Shown: piece after piece, positions 41,504 through 49,250 of the stretch
How positions within the stretch are numbered: position 1 is the stretch's first letter
Layout: each line of letters starts with the position of its first letter
Origin: Candidatus Yanofskybacteria bacterium
GTDB taxonomy: Bacteria; Patescibacteriota; Minisyncoccia; 2-02-FULL-40-12; GWA2-44-9
Length of the DNA: 64,000 bases
Direction: 5' to 3'
Assembly: GCA_020847715.1 (NCBI GenBank)
Contig: JADLBM010000016.1
Coordinates: 6,919 to 70,918 of the forward strand
Notes under the pieces: model-generated
What the model was told of the DNA's origin: nothing
Seen by the model: only the letters and a program-made list of their open reading frames with translations
Databases searched by the model: none
Translations under genes and position numbers: made by a program

Positions 41504-41980
41504 TCAACGGAAAAAGACCGTTATCTCACGGGCATCATCGAATTGCGGAAGCCCTGACGGATTATCTTTCTTCAAGATGAGCGCCCCGCGGGAACTATAT
41601 GCCGGCTTCTCGAATACAACCGTTGCCTCAAAGGGGACCCATTCGGTAGTCATCCATTCTCCCATCGCCTGTGCGGGAACCGTCGCGATGATGAGCCCGT
41701 CCCAATCGGTTAGAATGACCGGAAAGCTTCCCTCAAAGAACCAACTCCCCCGCGCCTTCCCGCTCACCCGCAATGGAGAGCTGACGCTCGCCATCGGAAG
41801 CGGCTGGTCAATGATAATGAGGTCGTCGGCGTCGGTTGTCGCGAGGGGCGTGGGCGACGCCATAGGAGTACCAGTCGGAACCGGCTCCCGACGAAGCGCG
41901 GGACCAAGCCACCACGCGCCCAGCGCCACCGCGCCAAGCAACACCACCGCCACAACGGTTATTCGTGCTACAGGATTCAT
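41504..41980 (-). CDS. Gmad2-like immunoglobulin-like domain protein with signal anchor
   Basis: ATGA start/stop overlap with the upstream rhodanese gene. Beta-rich secreted domain. Confidence 0.45.
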   Translation of the reverse strand: MNPVARITVVAVVLLGAVALGAWWLGPALRREPVPTGTPMASPTPLATTDADDLIIIDQPLPMASVSSPLRVSGKARGSWFFEGSFPVILTDWDGLIIATVPAQAMGEWMTTEWVPFEATVVFEKPAYSSRGALILKKDNPSGLPQFDDAREITVFFR

Positions 41981-42300
41981 TCTGTTGAGAGCGCTCCGCC
42001 TGCCTCCTCCCAATCCTTGAGCCCACCAATGTTCACGACATGCTCCCAGCCGTTCGCGGTGAGAATTTCCGCCGCTTTGCCGGCGCGTCCGCCCGCCGCA
42101 CAGTGCGTATACACCGTCACATCATGCGGAATATCGGGGAATTCTCCGCGCTCAAGCCGGGCAAGCTCCCAGTGGAGTGCGCCTGCGGCGTGCCCCGCCG
42201 CCCACTCCTCATCTCGTCGCACATCGAGCAAAACCGACGTTCCTGCCGCTTGATCGACAACCGCTTGTGCTGCGTTGGTATTCATGCCGCAAGTATACAC
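41977..42300 (-). CDS. Single-domain rhodanese (sulfurtransferase)
   Basis: Active-site loop YTHCAAGGRAG. Confidence 0.75.
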   Translation of the reverse strand: MYTCGMNTNAAQAVVDQAAGTSVLLDVRRDEEWAAGHAAGALHWELARLERGEFPDIPHDVTVYTHCAAGGRAGKAAEILTANGWEHVVNIGGLKDWEEAGGALSTE

Positions 42301-42301
42301 C

Positions 42302-42991
42302 CTACCTTCGCGTCCCGACTACAACGAAGTGGACGGTGAACAAGTCGTCGATTACCTTGTCGCCAAGATTCTTGAAGAAATTACCCGACGCATAGGTCAA
42401 CCCCCACTGCGTACGATCGAGAGTCGCCGTCGCTTCCATGGTCAGTGCGTTTCCCGCCCCAGTAAGAGTCGCCAAAAATTGGACGGGCTTCGTGACACCC
42501 TTGATGGCAAGCGTCCCGCTCACGGTGAGCTGGCCGGACACTGATGCGGGAGTCAGCTTCTCAAATGTGAATGCTGCGGTCGGATACTTCTCGACATCGA
42601 AGAAGTCCGCCGACTTAAGGTGCTTCTGCATCATCGTCTCGCCGCTCCCCCGCCCCGTGCTCGTCGTCGTAATGGTTGTCAGATCCACCACGACAGACCC
42701 CTTGGTCACTGCGCCGCCCTCTACCACTGCAGAGCCGCTTGCGATCGCCACGGTGCCACGGTCAATGTAGTTCGCAATAAGCGTCTTCGAGCCAGACCAC
42801 TCCATACGGGACGCCGAAGCGGTCAGCTGGTAGACACCATCGGAGAATACCAGCGGCGTTGCCGTCGCCTCGACTGGAGTCGCCGACAACACGGGGTCGC
42901 CAATGGGTCCGCGCTGATCACCCGATACAACATAGAGCACCCCGCCGACAACCGCGGCAACGATGACGAGAAATAGAATGAGTTTCATCAT
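42302..42991 (-). CDS. YceI-like periplasmic/lipid-binding protein
   Basis: Signal anchor plus the YceI pattern. Confidence 0.75.
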   Translation of the reverse strand: MMKLILFLVIVAAVVGGVLYVVSGDQRGPIGDPVLSATPVEATATPLVFSDGVYQLTASASRMEWSGSKTLIANYIDRGTVAIASGSAVVEGGAVTKGSVVVDLTTITTTSTGRGSGETMMQKHLKSADFFDVEKYPTAAFTFEKLTPASVSGQLTVSGTLAIKGVTKPVQFLATLTGAGNALTMEATATLDRTQWGLTYASGNFFKNLGDKVIDDLFTVHFVVVGTRR

Positions 42992-43075
42992 GCGTTCTAT
43001 AGTAGCGGACCTTCAGTCCGAAGCAACCCCTGTGCAGTCGTCAAAAAATCATGTACAACCACCTTGGAGGTGCGT

Positions 43076-43540
43076 ATGGCGATCGATGTCGTTTTTGCGT
43101 TCGTCGGAACACCCAGGGGAGACCCCGACACAATGCTCGTGTGTCTCCGGGAGAAGACATCGCGGCGCGGCGTCATCTTCACTATCGGTGATACGGATGC
43201 CGAAGCGATCCTGAGCGTTGCCCCCGGAGTCGTGCGTCACGGATATGAAGTCCATGAAATCTGGGCGGCAGCGATGACCACGATGGGAGTCACCCTCGAG
43301 CAGGTCATCCTCACGGGACTCAACGAGGAGCAAGCAGTACAGGGAGAGCTTCACTTCCGGCTCGGAGACCGTGCGTGGAGCGTCCCATGCCATCGACCTC
43401 CTATTGGCATCGCGCTTGCGCTGGCCATGAACGCTCCCATCCGCATCGCGAATGAGCTGTTCGCGGCAATGCAGCCGACCGACATCCCGGAACGCTTCCT
43501 CGGGGCATCTTCTCCGAAGGATGCGACCTCGACGGACTGA
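43076..43540 (+). CDS. Bifunctional nuclease (BFN/DUF151) domain protein
   Basis: GGAGGTG RBS. BFN-like core sequence. Confidence 0.65.
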   Translation: MAIDVVFAFVGTPRGDPDTMLVCLREKTSRRGVIFTIGDTDAEAILSVAPGVVRHGYEVHEIWAAAMTTMGVTLEQVILTGLNEEQAVQGELHFRLGDRAWSVPCHRPPIGIALALAMNAPIRIANELFAAMQPTDIPERFLGASSPKDATSTD

Positions 43541-43614: not shown

Positions 43615-46600
43615 TTAAACACGAATCCCGATCCACAGGGATTTCCCTGGCGCAAGATCCGCACTCTTTTCAAGCTTCAGCGCGACTCCATCCCGCTGAT
43701 TCGTGAAGATCGACAAGCCCGTCTCCTCGGCAATCATGTCGGCGTAGGCCAGCAACGCGCGGGATATTTCAGCATCTTCGCTCGTCCAGAAACACTGTAC
43801 GCGGTCCCCGACACGGCATCCGGCCTCTTTGCGCATGTCTTGAATGGCGCGCATCACCTCGCGCGCAAAACCCTCCGCTCGTAGCTCGGTCCCGATGGTA
43901 GTATCCAACGACACCGGAGCGCCCGGCATGTAGTTGACCTCTTTTACATTGAGCTCGTCCCGAATGAGCGCCTCGAGGTCGCTCGGGAGCTGTGTTCCAG
44001 GAATGGTGACCGCTCGCAGCGGCTGACGCACCTTGATCTGCTGGTCTTTCCGAATGGCAAGCCCAGCGCTGATGTGAGTGCGCACCTGCTCCATCTGTTG
44101 ATGTAGCGTTTCATTGACGAGCGCGATATTCGCCTGCTCCCAGTCAGCGAGGTGAACCGACTCCGCATCGCCCGGCCGTTTGAGCTTTTGCCATAGGTCC
44201 TCGGCGGTGAACGGAATGAACGGCGCTATCAGAAGGGCGAGCGAGCGGAGCACTGAACGCAACACCGGGAGCGCGCCGCTCCGCTTTCGGCTACGCCGCA
44301 GCCACCACTGACTGAAGTCGTCGACGACAAATCGTTCAAGTTCACGGGCGGCAACTGTCGTGTCGTAGTGATCCAGCCGCTCCGTGACCGTGCGCGTCAC
44401 CTCATGCAACCGCGAAAGGATCCACTCGTCCAACAAGTTTGTTGCCGCCCCCTCATCCGTGGCGTGCTCGGTCTGGTAGAGCTCGTAGAACCGCAAGCAA
44501 TTCCCGAGCGTCCCGAGAAAGCCCGTCAGTCGCTCGCGCACTTCTCGTACGCTGAAATTCTTCGTGTCCCCCGGAGCGTTCACGGTATAGAAGTACCACC
44601 GCGTTGCGTCGACGCCGACCGCGTCGAACACATCGTTCGGGAGCACGACATTCCCACGCGACTTGGACATCTTCTGCCCCTTCTCATCGAGTACATGCCC
44701 CAGCGAGACGACATTCTTGAACGGGGTCCCGCGCCCGAGTGCCGTCGCAACTGCGAGCAGCGTGTAAAACCAGCCACGCGTCTGGTCAACCGCCTCGGAA
44801 ATGAAGTCCGCCGGAAACTGCTGATTGAAGAGCTCCTCGTGCTCGAATGGCCAATGCCACTGCGCGTACGGCATGGAGCCGGAATCGAACCAGACGTCGC
44901 AAATCTCGGGCACGCGACGCAGCGTTTTCCCTCCCCGCTTCAGAACAATTTCATCAATGTATGGCCGATGCAGATCCACCGCGCCGCTCGCATCGCGAGG
45001 AATATTTCGCATGACAACCCGTTCCGGACTTGCATACGCAACGAAGTCGCTCCCGCGGCGCTCTTTTTCGGCAATGGATTCCTTCATGGTCCACCCGTTG
45101 GCCGCATCTACCAACATCCAGATGGGATACTCGTGACTCACGATGAGCACGTGCTTCCCCGCGTAGGCATCGTTCAGTTCTTTCATGACGCCCCACATGC
45201 GAGCGCGAAGATCGGCAAGCGACTCACCCCCCGGCGGCTGCTGAATGAACTTACTCTCGTAGGTCGGATACTGCTGATGGTACGCCGCATCGTGGCAACC
45301 CTTCAGGGTCGGCCCGAGATTAATCTCCCGCAGGCGCTCATCGGAGATAACCTTTGTGATGCCCAACTCGTTCGCAAATACCTCTGCGGTCTCGGCCGTT
45401 CGCTGGATAGGCGAAGTAATGATGGCGGCGAGCTTCACCCGCTTTTTCCCAAGCTCACGCTTCAGCATGCGCGCCGCTTCAAGTGCCTGCGCACGGCCGG
45501 CATCGGTGAGCGGAGAGTCCCCTTCTCCTTGGTCGATGACATGCTTAACATTCTTCACCGACTCCCCATGACGAACCACCCAGAACGTTGCCGGCGTGTC
45601 GCCGCGATAGGTATCGAGGTCCTCAAGCGATGAGACGACGAGCGGCTCACCGACAATCTGCCCCTGTCGATCGCGAGCGACCCAGATGGGAAGTGGCGTC
45701 CCCCAGTAGCGCTCACGAGAAAAGTTCCAATCCTTGCTCTCACGGAGCCACTGGCCGAAGCGGCCCTCTTTCAGGTGGCCTGGAACCCAATTGATGTCGG
45801 CATTGTTCGCGAGAAGCTCCTTGTTTAACGAGCTCATCCGCACGAACCAGCTATCCTTGGCATAGTACAACAGCGGCGTATCGCACCGCCAGCAGAACGG
45901 GTACTCGTGCTCATACGGAACCTTCGCCAAGAGCAACGAACGCGCGGCGAGCTGCTCCAGAATGAGCGCCTCGGTCTCCGCGGCCTTTACATACCGCCCA
46001 TCGAGCTCGGCGGATACGCCCACAAACTTTCCGCGCTCATCGACGGTGTGCACCTTCGGAAGTCCGACCGCTACGCCAAGTCGGTAGTCGTCTTCGCCAT
46101 ACATGACCGCCGTATGTACAATGCCGGTGCCGTCGGTCGTCGTAACGAAATCCGCATCATACACCTTGTACGATGTTGGCTTCTTCAGCGCTCGCACTGA
46201 AAAAAGCGGTTCGTAGCTGGTGGCGACAAGCTCGCCCCCATTGAACTCAGCGAGTATCTCCAATGGCGCGCCGAGCACTTTTTGCGCGAGGTCTGCCGCG
46301 AGAATGAAGTATTCGTCCCCCCGCTTCGCAAGCACATACTGCACCGAGGACCCGACTGCCAATGCAACATTCCCCGGCAGCGTCCACGGGGTCGTCGTCC
46401 ACGCAAGCAGAAACGTGTTCTTCGGAAGCGCCTTCCCATCAAGCTTCAGCTTCGAGCTCTTCACCTTGAACTTGAGGTATACCGATGTATCGGTAACGGT
46501 CTTATACCCCTGCGCAACCTCGTGGCTCGAGAGCGGCGTTCCGCACCGCGTGCAGTACGGCACAACCCGATGCGCCTGATACAGAAGTTTCCGCTCCCAG

Positions 46601-47076
46601 AACCGTCCGATGATATTCCAGAGCGATTCGATGTAGGGGTTCTCGTAGGTGATGTACGGATCCTGCAAGTCCACCCAGTAGCCGATGCGGCGCGTGAACC
46701 GGTCCCACTCACTCTTGAACTTCCACACCGACTCGCGGCACTTTGCGTTGTATGGCGCGATACCGTACGCCTCGATGTCCTTCTTGCTCTTGAACCCAAG
46801 CTCTTTCTCTACCTGAATCTCTACCGGAAGGCCGTGCGTATCCCATCCCCCTTTGCGCAGCACATAGCGCCCGCGCATGGTCTGGTAGCGGTTGAAGATG
46901 TCTTTGAAGATGCGCGCGATGACATGGTGAATCCCCGGATTGCCGTTCGCGGTCGGCGGTCCTTCGTAGAACACGAACGGCGTGCCGCCTTCCCGCTGCC
47001 GCATGCTTTTCCGGAAGACATCGTTGTCTTCCCAGAATTTCTGTATGCGTTCTTCGAGCTCTTTGAATTCGGCCAT
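43615..47076 (-). CDS. ileS: Isoleucine--tRNA ligase (type 2) with an in-frame inserted histidine-phosphatase (phosphoglycerate-mutase family) domain
   Basis: HIGH-region, CP1 editing (WTTTPWTLPGN), WFDSGS and KMSKS motifs are all present. Residues ~497-690 read VVRHGES...PLTDAG...ITSPIQRTAETA...VLIVSHEYP, a complete histidine-phosphatase domain (nt ~45000-45590). Promoter TTGAAA-N17-TACCAT sits 8 nt before the ATG. Confidence 0.95.
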   Translation of the reverse strand: MAEFKELEERIQKFWEDNDVFRKSMRQREGGTPFVFYEGPPTANGNPGIHHVIARIFKDIFNRYQTMRGRYVLRKGGWDTHGLPVEIQVEKELGFKSKKDIEAYGIAPYNAKCRESVWKFKSEWDRFTRRIGYWVDLQDPYITYENPYIESLWNIIGRFWERKLLYQAHRVVPYCTRCGTPLSSHEVAQGYKTVTDTSVYLKFKVKSSKLKLDGKALPKNTFLLAWTTTPWTLPGNVALAVGSSVQYVLAKRGDEYFILAADLAQKVLGAPLEILAEFNGGELVATSYEPLFSVRALKKPTSYKVYDADFVTTTDGTGIVHTAVMYGEDDYRLGVAVGLPKVHTVDERGKFVGVSAELDGRYVKAAETEALILEQLAARSLLLAKVPYEHEYPFCWRCDTPLLYYAKDSWFVRMSSLNKELLANNADINWVPGHLKEGRFGQWLRESKDWNFSRERYWGTPLPIWVARDRQGQIVGEPLVVSSLEDLDTYRGDTPATFWVVRHGESVKNVKHVIDQGEGDSPLTDAGRAQALEAARMLKRELGKKRVKLAAIITSPIQRTAETAEVFANELGITKVISDERLREINLGPTLKGCHDAAYHQQYPTYESKFIQQPPGGESLADLRARMWGVMKELNDAYAGKHVLIVSHEYPIWMLVDAANGWTMKESIAEKERRGSDFVAYASPERVVMRNIPRDASGAVDLHRPYIDEIVLKRGGKTLRRVPEICDVWFDSGSMPYAQWHWPFEHEELFNQQFPADFISEAVDQTRGWFYTLLAVATALGRGTPFKNVVSLGHVLDEKGQKMSKSRGNVVLPNDVFDAVGVDATRWYFYTVNAPGDTKNFSVREVRERLTGFLGTLGNCLRFYELYQTEHATDEGAATNLLDEWILSRLHEVTRTVTERLDHYDTTVAARELERFVVDDFSQWWLRRSRKRSGALPVLRSVLRSLALLIAPFIPFTAEDLWQKLKRPGDAESVHLADWEQANIALVNETLHQQMEQVRTHISAGLAIRKDQQIKVRQPLRAVTIPGTQLPSDLEALIRDELNVKEVNYMPGAPVSLDTTIGTELRAEGFAREVMRAIQDMRKEAGCRVGDRVQCFWTSEDAEISRALLAYADMIAEETGLSIFTNQRDGVALKLEKSADLAPGKSLWIGIRV

Positions 47077-47429: not shown

Positions 47430-49250
47430 CTACTCCTGCGCCGCAGAGAGAGGCTCGGGTGAAGCCGAAAGCTGAGCAACGCCTTTCAAGTACTTCGCCG
47501 GCCACTTCCGGTACCAACTCTTGAACTCCTGCACCTCTTTCCGACCATCCGGATAGGTCACCACATATGTCGCGATAGCCGAACCGCCGGGGTGCGGCGT
47601 CTCAACCTGCTTGATGACCCCCGGCGCAAGGTCAGTCGTTTCAATGTAGACCGGCTCGCCGGGCGGTGTTTCAGTGAGCGTACGAGGACCGATGACCTGA
47701 CTCGTGCGCCCATCGCTTGTTCCGTAGAGATCAAACGTCACCTTGTCGCCGATAACATACCCGATGATGAGAAGCGGATATGCGGTATCGTTTTTGAATT
47801 TGAAATCCACATTCGGCTCGTAAATGGTCGCGTCGAGGCCCGGGCCTATCTTCCGTCCCGCGCCATCCTTTTCGTAGTATGTCACGCGATAGCTGTGGTT
47901 CCGGCGCGCAGTCACCGGTAAACCGGCATCCAGCACCGCACGGAAGAGTGTCGTAGATACCTGACATAGTCCGCCGCCAAACTCGGGAAGCGTGCGGTCT
48001 CCTTTGATGACGAGCTCGGGAAGATACCCGCTCGTGTTGTCGATGGTGCCCAATGTCTGAAGTGTCGAAAACTCCTCCCCTGCCTTGACGACGGTACCCG
48101 TGAGAAACTTCACGCCATTTTTAATGTTGCTGATGCGATTCTTCGGACTGCCGGTAAATGGCGTCGTCGCCTTTCCGATGAGCTCACGAATCCCCGATGA
48201 TGCGTCGAGCCCCTCGAGCGCCATACTGGTCGCCTTCAGTGGGACCACGAGCACATCGCCGCCCTTCGCGTTCGTCGCACGACCCGTGACGGAGTCGGCA
48301 ATCATCTGCACCAGTGCGTCCTCCTTCACGGCTCGCCCGACCTTCGGAGGTACAAAACCGGTCACGCGCCCGCCGTCGGTGGTAATCTGCGGCGGCTGAG
48401 GATCGACATTGAGCGCCTTGGCAACCGTCGTAACATACGTGCCGATAGCGGTGCGGTCGACATCCGCGCGCAGACGATTTCCGTCTGCGCGGGAAACGAC
48501 CCACGAGCCAAGCTTCTCGCGACTAATCGTGAAAAAGAGATCCTCGTACTGGAGCGTGAGCGGTCGCGCAATCATGCGGCGCGCGGCGGCCGCCGCGTCT
48601 TCAGCGGTCGTGGCATCGATACGAGGAGGATCGTCACGCAACTGCAACGCGATCGTCGCGCCACCGAGCGAGCGGAGCGAATCAAGGGTCGCGGAAAACG
48701 CTTCCTGCTGGTCGATCGCCCGCCCCGGTTTTGTGTCGGTGCGCACCACTACGGTCGTCCCCTCGATTTCGAGACGCACATCACGGCGTTCGACATCGGT
48801 CGCACCGGCAACCTCCGCGACTTGCGCCTGCAATGCCTGCTCATCAACACGGACGGGTGCGGCGATATGCTCTTGGTGCCAGAGTGCGGAAACGCGAGCC
48901 CACTGCCGCGAAAAGAGCGGCCCCTCATGACCTCGCCTGAATGCATCATCCACGGCCTGTCCGATGTTCAAATCGAACCCGATGTTCCCAAGGTCCACCG
49001 CCTGCGGAGCACCTTCGACAACCAACGGGATGCCCTCCGATCCGAGACGATCAAGCGCCGCCTGCAACGCGAGGCCCGCTTGGTCACGCGTTAGGCCGCC
49101 AACCTCCACCGACCCAATCCATGTGTGCGGCACAATACGGTCGCCAACATACCACCCGTACGCCACAGCTCCGGATACCACGACACCAATAACGGCGACG
49201 ACGCCGATGAGAACGCGAGTCCGTAGAGATGAGAGGGATAGGAGTGCCAC
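47430..49250 (-). CDS. VanW family protein (YoaR-like), membrane-anchored
   Basis: N-terminal TM helix. C-terminal VanW core (GGGLCQVSTTLFRAVLDAGLPV). Confidence 0.7.
   Translation of the reverse strand: MALLSLSSLRTRVLIGVVAVIGVVVSGAVAYGWYVGDRIVPHTWIGSVEVGGLTRDQAGLALQAALDRLGSEGIPLVVEGAPQAVDLGNIGFDLNIGQAVDDAFRRGHEGPLFSRQWARVSALWHQEHIAAPVRVDEQALQAQVAEVAGATDVERRDVRLEIEGTTVVVRTDTKPGRAIDQQEAFSATLDSLRSLGGATIALQLRDDPPRIDATTAEDAAAAARRMIARPLTLQYEDLFFTISREKLGSWVVSRADGNRLRADVDRTAIGTYVTTVAKALNVDPQPPQITTDGGRVTGFVPPKVGRAVKEDALVQMIADSVTGRATNAKGGDVLVVPLKATSMALEGLDASSGIRELIGKATTPFTGSPKNRISNIKNGVKFLTGTVVKAGEEFSTLQTLGTIDNTSGYLPELVIKGDRTLPEFGGGLCQVSTTLFRAVLDAGLPVTARRNHSYRVTYYEKDGAGRKIGPGLDATIYEPNVDFKFKNDTAYPLLIIGYVIGDKVTFDLYGTSDGRTSQVIGPRTLTETPPGEPVYIETTDLAPGVIKQVETPHPGGSAIATYVVTYPDGRKEVQEFKSWYRKWPAKYLKGVAQLSASPEPLSAAQE

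What the first reader, a model, noticed from the sequence alone, without database searches (positions are those of the whole stretch)
44980..45600. Isoleucyl-tRNA synthetase carrying an intact histidine-phosphatase (PGM-family) domain inserted in-frame
The 1153-aa ileS ORF is ~200 aa longer than typical type-2 IleS. Between the conserved WGTPLPIW segment and the DLHRPYID...DVWFDSGS segment, residues ~497-690 read FWVVRHGESVKNV...SPLTDAGRAQA...ITSPIQRTAETA...GESLADLRARM...VLIVSHEYP. These are the complete catalytic motifs of the histidine phosphatase superfamily (phosphoglycerate mutase / SixA / CobC-like RHG...H core). Both IleS halves are in the same frame, so this is a genuine domain insertion and not two genes. 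A catalytically competent phosphatase embedded in an aaRS catalytic-domain loop is unusual. It could regulate or moonlight (for example phosphohistidine or nucleotide phosphatase activity) and appears undescribed.
Basis: seen in the sequence. Interest (0 to 1): 0.7.

Follow-up and report, generated by a model that had tools for sequence, protein, structure and literature searches.

The report
Phosphatase domain nested inside isoleucyl-tRNA synthetase
The enzyme that loads isoleucine onto tRNA in this tiny-genome bacterium carries a complete, apparently active phosphatase enzyme spliced into its catalytic core; hundreds of related species share this design, a sister enzyme (valyl-tRNA synthetase) has it too, and I found no paper that describes it.

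Summary
Window 43615-47076 (-) is one uninterrupted 1153-aa type-2 IleRS (TIGR00392, 848 bits against a cutoff of 621). It carries a net ~205-aa insertion (aa 477-696, nt 44989-45648) that is a full His_Phos_1 domain (PF00300, E=5e-37).

- **Site:** the tip of the CP3 zinc knuckle of the catalytic domain.
- **Not an artefact:** 80 of 80 inspected GTDB species genomes (378 matched) encode N-half, insert and C-half in one frame, across Paceibacteria/Parcubacteria.
- **Catalytic residues:** R502, H503, R559, E584 and H648 are invariant in 118/118 homologs, although the insert has drifted to ~42% identity. dN/dS is 0.14.
- **Closest relatives:** small-molecule phosphatases by sequence and predicted fold (PhoE, PspA, GpgP). 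No curated subfamily cutoff is met.
- **New here:** IleRS variants with two tandem copies or a second insertion site. ValRS of Gracilibacteria/Peregrinibacteria carries 1-4 copies at the homologous CP3 site, apparently acquired independently.

The substrate is unknown. My best reading is a working IleRS plus an autonomous metabolite phosphatase that is now structurally integrated. A phosphatase coupled to aminoacylation is not excluded. Ten literature searches found no description. I rate it a new variant of a known kind, interest about 0.72.

The parts
43615..47076 (-). Complete ileS gene (1153 aa plus stop): a type-2 isoleucyl-tRNA synthetase with a nested phosphatase domain.
   Evidence: ORF. 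TIGR00392 848 bits against 621. Pfam tRNA-synt_1, Anticodon_1 and DUF5915. AF2 model pLDDT 90.7, pTM 0.83. IleRS2 fold: TM 0.81 to 8C8V and 0.91 to 1ILE.
45649..47076 (-). IleRS N-terminal part (aa 1-476): first half of the Rossmann fold, CP core, CP1 editing domain, CP2, and the start of CP3.
   Evidence: Aligns to 8C8W residues 11-468. Invariant TTTPWT (aa 227-232), H321 and D330 of the editing site.
46924..46935 (-). Class I signature motif in its non-canonical G-X-H-H form (GIHH, aa 48-51).
   Evidence: Translation. It matches the GVHH mutant 8C8W better than wild-type HVGH 8C8U. The G/AXHH motif is described in PMC10485003.
45700..45738 (-). CP2-CP3 linker SKDWNFSRERYWG (aa 447-459), the homologue of the yeast IleRS segment that lines the tRNA A76 / reveromycin pocket.
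   Evidence: for the sequence. PMC7955072 for the role of ARDWNVSRNRYWG in yeast IleRS.
45649..45684 (-). First half of the CP3 zinc knuckle, degenerate here (WVARDRQGQIVG, where relatives have W-x-C-x-x-C).
   Evidence: 66/118 homologs keep both CxxC pairs. 36/118, including the window protein, have lost all four Cys.
44989..45648 (-). Whole insertion relative to solved IleRS2 (aa 477-696, ~205 aa net): N-linker, His_Phos_1 domain, C-linker.
   Evidence: query 476->697 against chain 468->483. Insert length is 210-222 aa in 118 homologs.
45082..45582 (-). Histidine phosphatase superfamily branch 1 domain core (aa 499-665).
   Evidence: PF00300 E=4.8e-37. PhoE 1EBB/1H2E E=7e-16. Domain model pLDDT 95.2. 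Foldseek neighbours 6S2Q, 1H2E, 4IJ6 and 4PZ9, TM ~0.75.
45565..45573 (-). RHG motif: R502, the predicted nucleophile H503, and G504.
   Evidence: R and H are 118/118 invariant. Aligned to the RHG of PhoE.
45400..45402 (-). R559, second phosphate-binding arginine (SPxxR motif).
   Evidence: 118/118 invariant.
45325..45327 (-). E584, predicted proton donor (DERLREI, identical to PhoE).
   Evidence: 118/118 invariant. Alignment to PhoE.
45133..45135 (-). H648, second catalytic histidine (VSHE).
   Evidence: 118/118 invariant.
44911..44946 (-). Second half of the CP3 zinc knuckle, degenerate here (VLKRGGKTLRRV, where relatives have L-K-C-x-x-C).
43618..44988 (-). IleRS C-terminal part (aa 697-1153): end of CP3, second half of the Rossmann fold with KMSKS (aa 802-806, nt 44659-44673), anticodon-binding domain, and type-2 C-terminal domain.
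   Evidence: Aligns to 8C8W residues 483-851 and 937-1000. PF08264 and PF19302. K802, S804 and K805 are invariant.

Best explanation
The gene encodes one polypeptide with two independent enzymes.

**1. The host is an ordinary, functional type-2 IleRS.** It has a G-X-H-H signature, KMSKS, an intact CP1 editing site and an anticodon-binding domain, and it charges tRNA-Ile as usual.

**2. The guest is a complete branch-1 histidine phosphatase.** It is nested at the tip of the CP3 zinc knuckle, a solvent-exposed and structurally variable appendage of the catalytic domain. It should work by the family mechanism:
- R502, R559 and H648 hold a phosphomonoester.
- H503 attacks to form a phospho-histidine intermediate.
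- E584 protonates the leaving group and then activates water.

**3. Its substrate is most likely a small phosphorylated metabolite or nucleotide.** This is PhoE/PspA/GpgP-like chemistry, not tRNA or protein.

**4. How the fusion arose.** It was probably fixed because the CP3 tip tolerates insertions, and because riding on an essential, constitutively expressed gene guarantees expression in a minimal genome. Afterwards the domain became structurally integrated. In the window's sub-clade the four zinc-binding cysteines have decayed, so the insert can no longer be lost without damaging IleRS.

**Status of each step.**
- Shown: the architecture, the site, the conservation, the selection and the distribution.
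- Inferred from family knowledge: catalytic competence and mechanism.
- Inferred, weakest step: substrate class and independence from aminoacylation.
For: **Architecture and site:**

**Not an artefact.** 120/120 best homologs carry PF00300. 378 GTDB species genomes matched, and 80/80 inspected have all three parts in one frame.

**The host is functional.** It scores above the TIGR00392 cutoff. The signature, editing and KMSKS residues are invariant. dN/dS is 0.05-0.06. The predicted fold is IleRS2.

**The guest is under selection for catalysis.**
- R502/H503/R559/E584/H648 are 118/118 invariant, while the domain averages 42% identity.
- dN/dS is 0.14.
- Every copy in the tandem IleRS variants keeps RH[G/A].

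**Small-molecule reading.**
- The nearest sequences and folds are PhoE, PspA, glucosyl-3-phosphoglycerate phosphatase, a riboflavin-pathway phosphatase and TIGAR. No protein- or RNA-directed members rank near the top.
- The insert is mildly acidic (median pI 6.2) while the tRNA-binding body is basic (8.3).
- Copy number varies from 1 to 4, and secondary insertion sites exist. That argues against one fixed geometry relative to the synthetic site.

**Permissive-site reading.**
- CP3 topology differs among solved IleRSs, and only some bind zinc (PMC7191050).
- CP3 is an exposed docking surface in human IARS1 (PMC13439101).
- Other Pfam families also occur inside ValRS of these bacteria.

**Ratchet.** The knuckle cysteines are lost in 36/118 sequences, including the window protein.
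Against: - No enzymatic data exist, and no curated phosphatase subfamily cutoff is met, so the substrate is unknown.
- The same domain family was captured at the homologous CP3 site in two paralogous synthetases in two lineages. Neutral hitch-hiking does not easily explain that, and it hints at a functional link to class Ia aminoacylation.
- The base of CP3 adjoins the segment lining the tRNA A76 pocket.
- The whole-protein pTM of 0.83 suggests a fixed rather than floppy orientation.
- I could not obtain model coordinates, so the distance and orientation of H503 relative to the synthetic site are unmeasured.
- About a quarter of the ValRS-embedded copies lack the Glu proton donor. In that host at least, the domain is not always a standard catalyst.
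Confidence: 0.55

Rival explanations
1. **Aminoacylation-coupled phosphatase.** The nested domain would be a third catalytic site serving the synthetase reaction. One possibility is that it removes a 2'/3'-phosphate, cyclic phosphate or pyrophosphate from the tRNA CCA end so the tRNA can be charged. That would be repair after nuclease damage or after toxin pyrophosphorylation (own knowledge: toxic small alarmone synthetases pyrophosphorylate tRNA 3' ends). The other possibility is that it acts on a nucleotide product such as AMP at the active-site exit.
For: - The hosts found are IleRS and ValRS, both class Ia synthetases, with insertion at the homologous CP3 site and apparently independent capture.
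- CP3 starts right after the linker that lines the A76 pocket.
- The confident whole-chain model (pTM 0.83) suggests a defined orientation.
- All catalytic residues are conserved in IleRS.
Against: - The insert is acidic, not basic.
- All near structural neighbours are metabolite phosphatases.
- To my knowledge no His_Phos_1 member acts on RNA ends.
- One to four tandem copies, plus second sites far along the sequence (before the anticodon-binding domain, or on the CP2 side), are hard to reconcile with one precise geometry.
- There is no obvious reason why only Ile and Val tRNAs would need repair.
- The Glu proton donor is lost in ~25% of ValRS copies.
Confidence: 0.2
2. **Regulatory or sensor module, or a self-directed protein phosphatase.** Either the domain binds a phosphorylated ligand and tunes IleRS activity allosterically through CP3, or it dephosphorylates the synthetase itself (or a partner). 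The second option would, for example, undo inhibitory phosphorylation of the kind HipA-type kinase toxins place on other synthetases (own knowledge).
For: - The phosphate-binding residues R, H and R are universal even where the proton donor is lost in ValRS copies. That fits binding without turnover.
- The domain sits rigidly on the catalytic domain.
- The histidine phosphatase superfamily does include protein phosphatases (SixA, PGAM5, Sts-1; own knowledge).
Against: - In IleRS the full catalytic pentad is invariant in 118/118. A pure binder would not need that.
- The SixA model scores far below its cutoff (24.5 against 74.5).
- Protein phosphatases of the family are not among the closest folds.
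- No kinase gene is conserved nearby.
Confidence: 0.12
3. **Purely structural remnant (constructive neutral evolution).** The domain would have been inserted by chance, would now merely replace the CP3 zinc knuckle as a folding scaffold, and its chemistry would be irrelevant.
For: - The zinc-knuckle cysteines have decayed in the window's sub-clade.
- CP3 tolerates very different structures.
- The insert evolves faster than the host.
Against: - Five catalytic residues are invariant across 118 sequences that have otherwise diverged to ~30-40% identity.
- dN/dS is 0.14.
- Copies were amplified rather than reduced, and the same family was captured in ValRS.
Confidence: 0.06
4. **Assembly or annotation artefact.** Two genes (ileS fragments and a phosphatase gene) would have been joined by misassembly or a sequencing error.
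For: None found.
Against: - One uninterrupted ORF, with no compositional break.
- The same architecture in 120/120 best homologs from NCBI, JGI, ENA and Logan assemblies.
- The same architecture, in one frame, in 80/80 GTDB species genomes, including a complete genome, AP024682.1.
Confidence: 0.01

Closest known systems
Type-2 bacterial IleRS (Priestia megaterium IleRS2, PDB 8C8U/8C8V/8C8W; Thermus thermophilus IleRS, 1ILE)
   Same: The whole synthetase body matches: Rossmann fold, CP core, CP1 editing domain, CP2, CP3, anticodon-binding and type-2 C-terminal domains (E=3e-255 by sequence; TM 0.81-0.91). The G-X-H-H signature equals the natural 'non-canonical' IleRS2 variant. Like Thermus IleRS, most members of the clade have a zinc motif in CP3.
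   Different: About 15 residues at the CP3 tip are replaced by a ~220-aa segment containing a complete phosphatase. The window protein has lost the CP3 cysteines. Its C-terminal region is shorter (partial DUF5915 match).
PhoE (YhfR) broad-specificity phosphatase of Geobacillus stearothermophilus (1EBB/1H2E) and similar ~200-aa metabolite phosphatases (PspA 4IJ5, GpgP Rv2419c 4PZ9, riboflavin-pathway HFP 9MMH)
   Same: Same fold and the same catalytic residues. About 33% identity, including an identical DERLREI stretch around the proton donor.
   Different: Those are free-standing soluble enzymes with known substrates. Here the domain's N and C termini are both tied into a synthetase subdomain, and the substrate is unknown. 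No curated subfamily model reaches its cutoff.
Bifunctional RNase H / acid phosphatase (Rv2228c type, NCBIfam NF005567)
   Same: It is the best-scoring NCBIfam model for the insert (99.8 bits). It is another case of a His_Phos_1 domain fused to an enzyme acting on nucleic acid.
   Different: That is an end-to-end fusion, not a nested insertion. The score is far below the cutoff (326), so the insert is not a member.
CP1 editing domain nested in the class Ia zinc finger (ZF)
   Same: The same construction principle applies. A whole globular catalytic domain is inserted between the two halves of a cysteine-rich knuckle of the class Ia catalytic domain (PMC10810186).
   Different: CP1 is ancient, universal in Ile/Val/LeuRS, and acts on the enzyme's own product. 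The phosphatase sits in the other knuckle (CP3), is lineage-restricted, and has no demonstrated link to aminoacylation.
IleRS with an N-acetyltransferase domain (NCBIfam NF040702 'ileS_w_GNAT')
   Same: A curated precedent for an IleRS carrying an additional enzyme domain.
   Different: It is a different extra domain and a different IleRS lineage (289 bits against a cutoff of 1999). I could not determine where the GNAT domain lies.
ValRS with His_Phos_1 in Gracilibacteria/Peregrinibacteria
   Same: The same domain family sits at the homologous CP3 position (between WGxxIP and DTWFSS). The hosts are also Patescibacteria, and tandem copies also occur.
   Different: The host synthetase and lineage differ. 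The inserts are no closer to the IleRS inserts than to free-standing phosphatases. About a quarter of them lack the Glu proton donor.

Membership tests
Isoleucine-tRNA ligase (TIGR00392), type 2 | Whole-protein score above the curated cutoff. | tested here: met
   848.1 bits against a cutoff of 621.4, matched in two stretches split by the insert.
Isoleucine-tRNA ligase (TIGR00392), type 2 | Class I signature motif (HXGH, or G/AXHH in IleRS2) and KMSKS. | tested here: met
   GIHH at aa 48-51 and KMSKS at aa 802-806. H51, K802, S804 and K805 are invariant. The G/AXHH form is documented for IleRS2.
Isoleucine-tRNA ligase (TIGR00392), type 2 | CP1 editing domain with a Thr-rich motif and a conserved Asp. 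| tested here: met
   TTTPWT at aa 227-232; H321 and D330 invariant. Matches isolated IleRS editing-domain structures 1WK8 and 1UE0.
Isoleucine-tRNA ligase (TIGR00392), type 2 | Anticodon-binding domain and type-2 C-terminal domain. | tested here: met
   PF08264 at aa 883-1023. PF19302 at aa 1055-1119, a partial match. Fold superposes on 8C8V.
Isoleucine-tRNA ligase (TIGR00392), type 2 | Aminoacylation of tRNA-Ile. | not testable with these tools
   Needs enzyme assays. Inferred from the intact motifs and dN/dS of 0.05-0.06.
Histidine phosphatase superfamily, branch 1 (PF00300) | Profile score above the gathering threshold. | tested here: met
   128 bits against 21.7, E=4.8e-37. The insert alone gives 132 bits.
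Histidine phosphatase superfamily, branch 1 (PF00300) | RHG nucleophile motif plus second Arg, Glu proton donor and second His. | tested here: met
   R502, H503, R559, E584 and H648 are present and invariant in 118/118 homologs. They align to the PhoE catalytic residues.
Histidine phosphatase superfamily, branch 1 (PF00300) | Alpha/beta/alpha sandwich fold. | tested here: met
   Domain model pLDDT 95.2. Foldseek probability 1.00 and TM ~0.75 to PhoE, PspA, GpgP and dPGMs.
Histidine phosphatase superfamily, branch 1 (PF00300) | Phosphomonoesterase or mutase activity through a phospho-His intermediate. | not testable with these tools
   Needs biochemistry.
Cofactor-dependent phosphoglycerate mutase (TIGR01258 pgm_1; NF038349 dPGM_arch; GpmB NF002901) | Score above the curated cutoff. 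| tested here: not met
   25.4 against 81.7; 89.2 against 225; 67.1 against 261. Not filed as a mutase. Mutase activity is not excluded experimentally.
Alpha-ribazole phosphatase CobC (TIGR03162) | Score above the curated cutoff. | tested here: not met
   74.7 against 162.9.
Phosphoserine phosphatase PspA (NF045917) | Score above the curated cutoff. | tested here: not met
   61.8 against 350.
Phosphohistidine phosphatase SixA (TIGR00249) | Score above the curated cutoff. | tested here: not met
   24.5 against 74.5.
IleRS with GNAT domain (NF040702) | Score above the curated cutoff. | tested here: not met
   288.9 against 1999.
Acquired mupirocin-resistant IleRS MupA/MupB (NF000257/NF000258) | Score above the curated cutoff. 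| tested here: not met
   757.6 and 745.4 against 1900.

The most novel reading that the evidence does not exclude
The phosphatase would be a third catalytic centre functionally coupled to class Ia aminoacylation, alongside the synthetic and editing sites. It would have evolved convergently in IleRS (Paceibacteria) and ValRS (Gracilibacteria/Peregrinibacteria). It would process a phosphorylated species at the synthetase, for example by removing a blocking phosphate or pyrophosphate from the tRNA A76 ribose, or by acting on a nucleotide product. That would be a new kind of quality control or repair built into a tRNA synthetase.
Probability: 0.17. Interest if true: 0.92.

Novelty: new variant of a known kind. 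Interest (0 to 1): 0.72.

Why it matters
Aminoacyl-tRNA synthetases are among the most conserved enzymes known. The only catalytic domain known to be nested inside the class Ia catalytic core is the ancient CP1 editing domain.

Here a second complete enzyme is nested in the other zinc knuckle (CP3). Four observations show it is not a neutral oddity:
- Its catalytic residues have been kept intact across hundreds of species of the candidate phyla radiation.
- It has been amplified to tandem copies.
- It also occupies a second site in some IleRS proteins.
- It was captured independently at the same position in ValRS.

If the two activities are independent, this is a clear natural example of how minimal genomes pack metabolism into essential genes, and of a dependency ratchet (loss of the zinc site). 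It also identifies a permissive site for engineering synthetases. If the activities are coupled, it would be a new activity in tRNA charging.

There are practical consequences too. NCBI names these proteins only 'class I tRNA ligase family protein'. The embedded domain is also likely to be scored as gpmB/COG0406 in automated metabolic reconstructions of these bacteria (my inference).

Tried and rejected
1. **Misassembly, frameshift or two genes.** Rejected: there is one ORF, no composition break, and 80/80 independent species loci are in one frame.

2. **Assignment to a specific phosphatase subfamily** (dPGM, GpmB, CobC, PspA, SixA, RNase H/acid phosphatase). All score below their curated cutoffs.

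3. **Operon or neighbourhood clue.** The neighbours (VanW/PG_binding_4, BFN nuclease, YceI, rhodanese, Gmad2) show no functional link. They are conserved only in the closest relatives (VanW 7/80, BFN 2/80).

4. **Single-origin test.** A neighbour-joining tree of 174 domains was unresolved at these divergences: the largest pure IleRS clade had 10 of 94 members. Best-hit score comparison was used instead. The 'free-standing' set may contain gene fragments and is biased towards relatives of the window insert.

5. **Taxon names for unusual variants** through the cluster look-up. None were returned.

6. **Second ileS or free-standing paralog.** None in the window. Whole genomes could not be scanned.

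7. **Geometry of the phosphatase pocket relative to the synthetic site.** The tools return no coordinates, so this was not measured.

8. **Literature.** Ten full-text searches found no description. The terms covered IleRS/ValRS with histidine phosphatase or phosphoglycerate mutase, CPR/Patescibacteria with aaRS domains, insertion modules, CP3 and GNAT. Subscription-only papers are not covered.
Full report
**Observation.** Window 43615-47076 on the minus strand is one uninterrupted ORF of 1153 aa. GC content shows no break across it.

Pfam finds tRNA-synt_1 in two stretches, with His_Phos_1 (PF00300, E=4.8e-37, aa 499-665) between them, followed by Anticodon_1 and DUF5915. NCBIfam TIGR00392 (ileS) scores 848 bits against a cutoff of 621, again in two stretches.

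**Where the insert sits.** The best solved relative is type-2 IleRS of Priestia megaterium (8C8W, E=3e-255). It bridges query residues 476 to 697 with chain residues 468 to 483. The net insertion is therefore about 205 aa (aa 477-696, nt 44989-45648).

- Query residue 474 aligns to residue 487 of Candida albicans IleRS (6LDK). That is inside the CP3 subdomain as defined for that enzyme (residues 473-534; PMC7191050).
- The same paper describes CP3 as peripheral and different in topology in each solved IleRS, with a zinc motif only in the Thermus enzyme.
- In the homolog alignment the insert lies exactly between two CxxC pairs. They are intact in 66 of 118 sequences and completely lost in 36, including the window protein (WVARDRQG... 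and LKRGGKT...).
- Douglas et al. list CP3 as a cysteine-rich zinc finger module of class Ia enzymes. They note that the editing domain is itself nested in the other zinc finger (PMC10810186).

So this is a second domain-in-a-knuckle construction. The segment just before CP3 (SKDWNFSRERYWG) is the homologue of the yeast linker that lines the tRNA A76 / reveromycin pocket (PMC7955072).

**Real, old and widespread.**
- All 120 best database homologs (49-100% identity, from NCBI, JGI, ENA and Logan assemblies) carry PF00300. They are named Candidatus Yanofskybacteria, Paceibacterota or Patescibacteria where named.
- A scan of GTDB species-representative genomes with an alignment of the insert alone matched 378 loci.
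- All 80 loci returned have the IleRS N-half, the insert and the C-half in a single reading frame. The only exceptions are six cut by contig ends.
- Their titles span Yanofsky-, Lipton-, Wolfe-, Sung-, Niyogi-, Jorgensen- and Campbellbacteria, Paceibacteria and Minisyncoccia. They include one complete genome (AP024682.1).
- In an exhaustive search of 1.84 billion 50%-identity representatives, 86 of the 150 best hits to the insert scored as synthetase-embedded against the IleS halves. One of them, P0125, later proved to be a ValRS.

Misassembly is excluded.

**Both enzymes look functional.**

The host keeps its functional motifs. The signature is GIHH, the natural G/AXHH variant of IleRS2 (PMC10485003). 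KMSKS, the editing-site TTTPWT, H321 and D330 are invariant. The host evolves at dN/dS 0.05-0.06 against its closest relative. The full-length AlphaFold model is confident (pLDDT 90.7, pTM 0.83; insert blocks 91-96), and the body superposes on IleRS2.

In the guest, R502, H503, R559, E584 and H648 are invariant in 118 of 118 sequences. Meanwhile the domain has drifted to a mean 42% identity (minimum 29%), against 56-67% for the host. Its dN/dS is 0.14.

**What kind of phosphatase.**
- By sequence the nearest solved protein is PhoE of Geobacillus (1EBB/1H2E, E=7e-16), with all motifs aligned.
- A domain-only model (pLDDT 95.2) finds a mycobacterial hydrolase, PhoE, phosphoserine phosphatase PspA, glucosyl-3-phosphoglycerate phosphatase, a riboflavin-pathway phosphatase and TIGAR as best folds. 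All are small-molecule phosphomonoesterases.
- No curated subfamily model (dPGM, GpmB, CobC, PspA, SixA, RNase H/acid phosphatase) reaches its cutoff.

The substrate cannot be named.

**Variants and a second host.**
- Some IleRS clusters carry two tandem domains at the CP3 site (P0138, P0164, P0212, P0135, P0168). First copies group with first copies and second with second, so the duplication is old. P0138 recurs on several contigs.
- P0205 and P0186 carry an extra copy between window residues 867 and 880, the flexible loop before the anticodon-binding domain.
- P0125, a hit to the insert, turned out to be a ValRS.
- Among its 120 best relatives, 71 carry one to four His_Phos_1 domains. The named ones are Candidatus Gracilibacteria or Peregrinibacteria, and insert-free relatives are 880-930 aa.
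- In ValRS, 73 domain instances lie between WGxxIP and DTWFSS, the position homologous to the IleRS site. Seven lie on the CP2 side.
- ValRS and IleRS inserts are no more similar to each other (about 73 bits) than to free-standing phosphatases. Within a host the scores are 155-196 bits. That favours independent capture.
- In ValRS, 19 of 69 proteins lack the Glu proton donor in all copies. In IleRS none do.

**Mechanism.**

Shown: one polypeptide, two complete catalytic modules, insertion at the CP3 knuckle tip, purifying selection on both, and clade-wide retention.

Inferred from the family mechanism: H503 forms a phospho-enzyme, E584 is the acid/base, and R502, R559 and H648 bind phosphate.

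My preferred reading (about 0.55) is an autonomous metabolite phosphatase riding on an ordinary IleRS. The evidence for it:
- The closest relatives are metabolite phosphatases.
- The insert is mildly acidic (median pI 6.2) while the body is basic (8.3).
- Copy number and secondary sites vary.
- Gene neighbourhood is not conserved.
- CP3 is a known tolerant, exposed surface.

The loss of the zinc cysteines in the window's sub-clade suggests the insert has become structurally indispensable.

The main rival (about 0.2) is a phosphatase coupled to aminoacylation. Three observations keep it alive:
- The same family was captured at the same site in two sister synthetases.
- CP3's base lies next to the A76 pocket.
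- The model shows a rigid orientation.

I could not measure distances because no coordinates are returned.

**Known or new.** The sequences are public and carry precomputed Pfam hits. NCBI calls them 'class I tRNA ligase family protein' and JGI calls them 'isoleucyl-tRNA synthetase'. Ten full-text searches found no description. Neither the 2023 and 2026 IleRS evolution papers nor the 2023 survey of synthetase insertion modules turned up anything on it when I searched them. I rate it a new variant of a known kind: a synthetase with an extra domain, but nested in the catalytic core, enzymatic, recurrent and amplified. Interest is 0.72.

Noticed in passing
window 46924-46935 (-), aa 48-51: The class I signature motif reads GIHH, the non-canonical G/AXHH form reported to give IleRS2 mupirocin hyper-resistance (PMC10485003). 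The clade consensus is PGIHH and H51 is invariant, so the whole Paceibacteria family has it.
   Followed up: partly
window 45649-45684 and 44911-44946 (-): Both CxxC halves of the CP3 zinc knuckle are lost in the window protein and in 36/118 relatives. 66/118 keep all four cysteines. The insert therefore predates the loss of the zinc site.
   Followed up: yes
window 45229-45327 (-), aa 584-616; homologs P0039-P0120: The phosphatase cap region differs between the two sub-clades. Knuckle-retaining members have a His/Cys-rich motif (E-I-x-H-G-x-x-C-E-G-K-x-H-x-x-C), which could bind a metal. The window sub-clade instead has LGPxLxGCHDxxYHxxYPTYxxKF. The motif partly co-varies with the zinc knuckle (32 sequences have both, 44 have neither, 42 are mixed).
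   Followed up: partly
P0138, P0272, P0164, P0212, P0135, P0168, P0173 (IleRS relatives): These IleRS variants have two tandem His_Phos_1 domains at the CP3 site (up to 1489 aa). Copy 1 groups with copy 1 and copy 2 with copy 2 across clusters, so the duplication is old and retained.
   Followed up: partly
P0205 and P0186 (IleRS relatives); equivalent to window aa 867-880, nt 44440-44475: A second His_Phos_1 domain is inserted in the flexible loop between the catalytic domain and the anticodon-binding domain, in addition to the CP3 copy.
   Followed up: partly
P0125, P0274-P0391 (ValRS of Candidatus Gracilibacteria / Peregrinibacteria): 71 of the 120 best ValRS relatives carry 1-4 His_Phos_1 domains, mostly at the homologous CP3 site. 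Seven domain instances lie at a second site between QWF and WCISRQ. 19 of 69 proteins lack the Glu proton donor.
   Followed up: partly
P0297, P0332 (PF04480), P0306 (PF00216), P0300 (PF16326): Some of these ValRS proteins carry other unexpected Pfam families: a DUF559 endonuclease-like domain, an HU-type DNA-binding domain, and an ABC_tran_CTD. Synthetases of these bacteria seem to accept foreign domains readily.
   Followed up: no
P0141, P0152, P0161, P0169, P0181, P0202 and others: Among the nearest non-synthetase relatives of the insert are free-standing proteins of ~380-450 aa made of two tandem His_Phos_1 domains. Their taxonomy and function are unknown.
   Followed up: no
window 43064-43540 (+): A bifunctional-nuclease (BFN) domain gene lies convergent to ileS, with its end 74 nt from the ileS stop codon. 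It is conserved next to ileS in only 2 of 80 related loci.
   Followed up: partly
window 47430-49250 (-), 42302-42991 (-), 41977-42300 (-), 41504-42013 (-): The neighbouring genes are VanW plus a peptidoglycan-binding domain, YceI-like, rhodanese, and a Gmad2 immunoglobulin-like domain protein. The last two ORFs overlap by 37 nt.
   Followed up: partly
L002-L004, L013-L016 and other loci (GTDB genome titles): Many genomes carrying this Paceibacteria-type IleRS are titled 'uncultured Candidatus Saccharibacteria bacterium'. The label is probably a generic submitter name rather than the true lineage.
   Followed up: no
P0001, P0002, P0021 and others (names): NCBI names these proteins only 'class I tRNA ligase family protein', although TIGR00392 is met. 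The embedded domain resembles what KEGG/COG call gpmB (a relative, P0157, is labelled COG0406 K15634). Automated metabolic reconstructions may therefore credit these genomes with a phosphoglycerate mutase.
   Followed up: no
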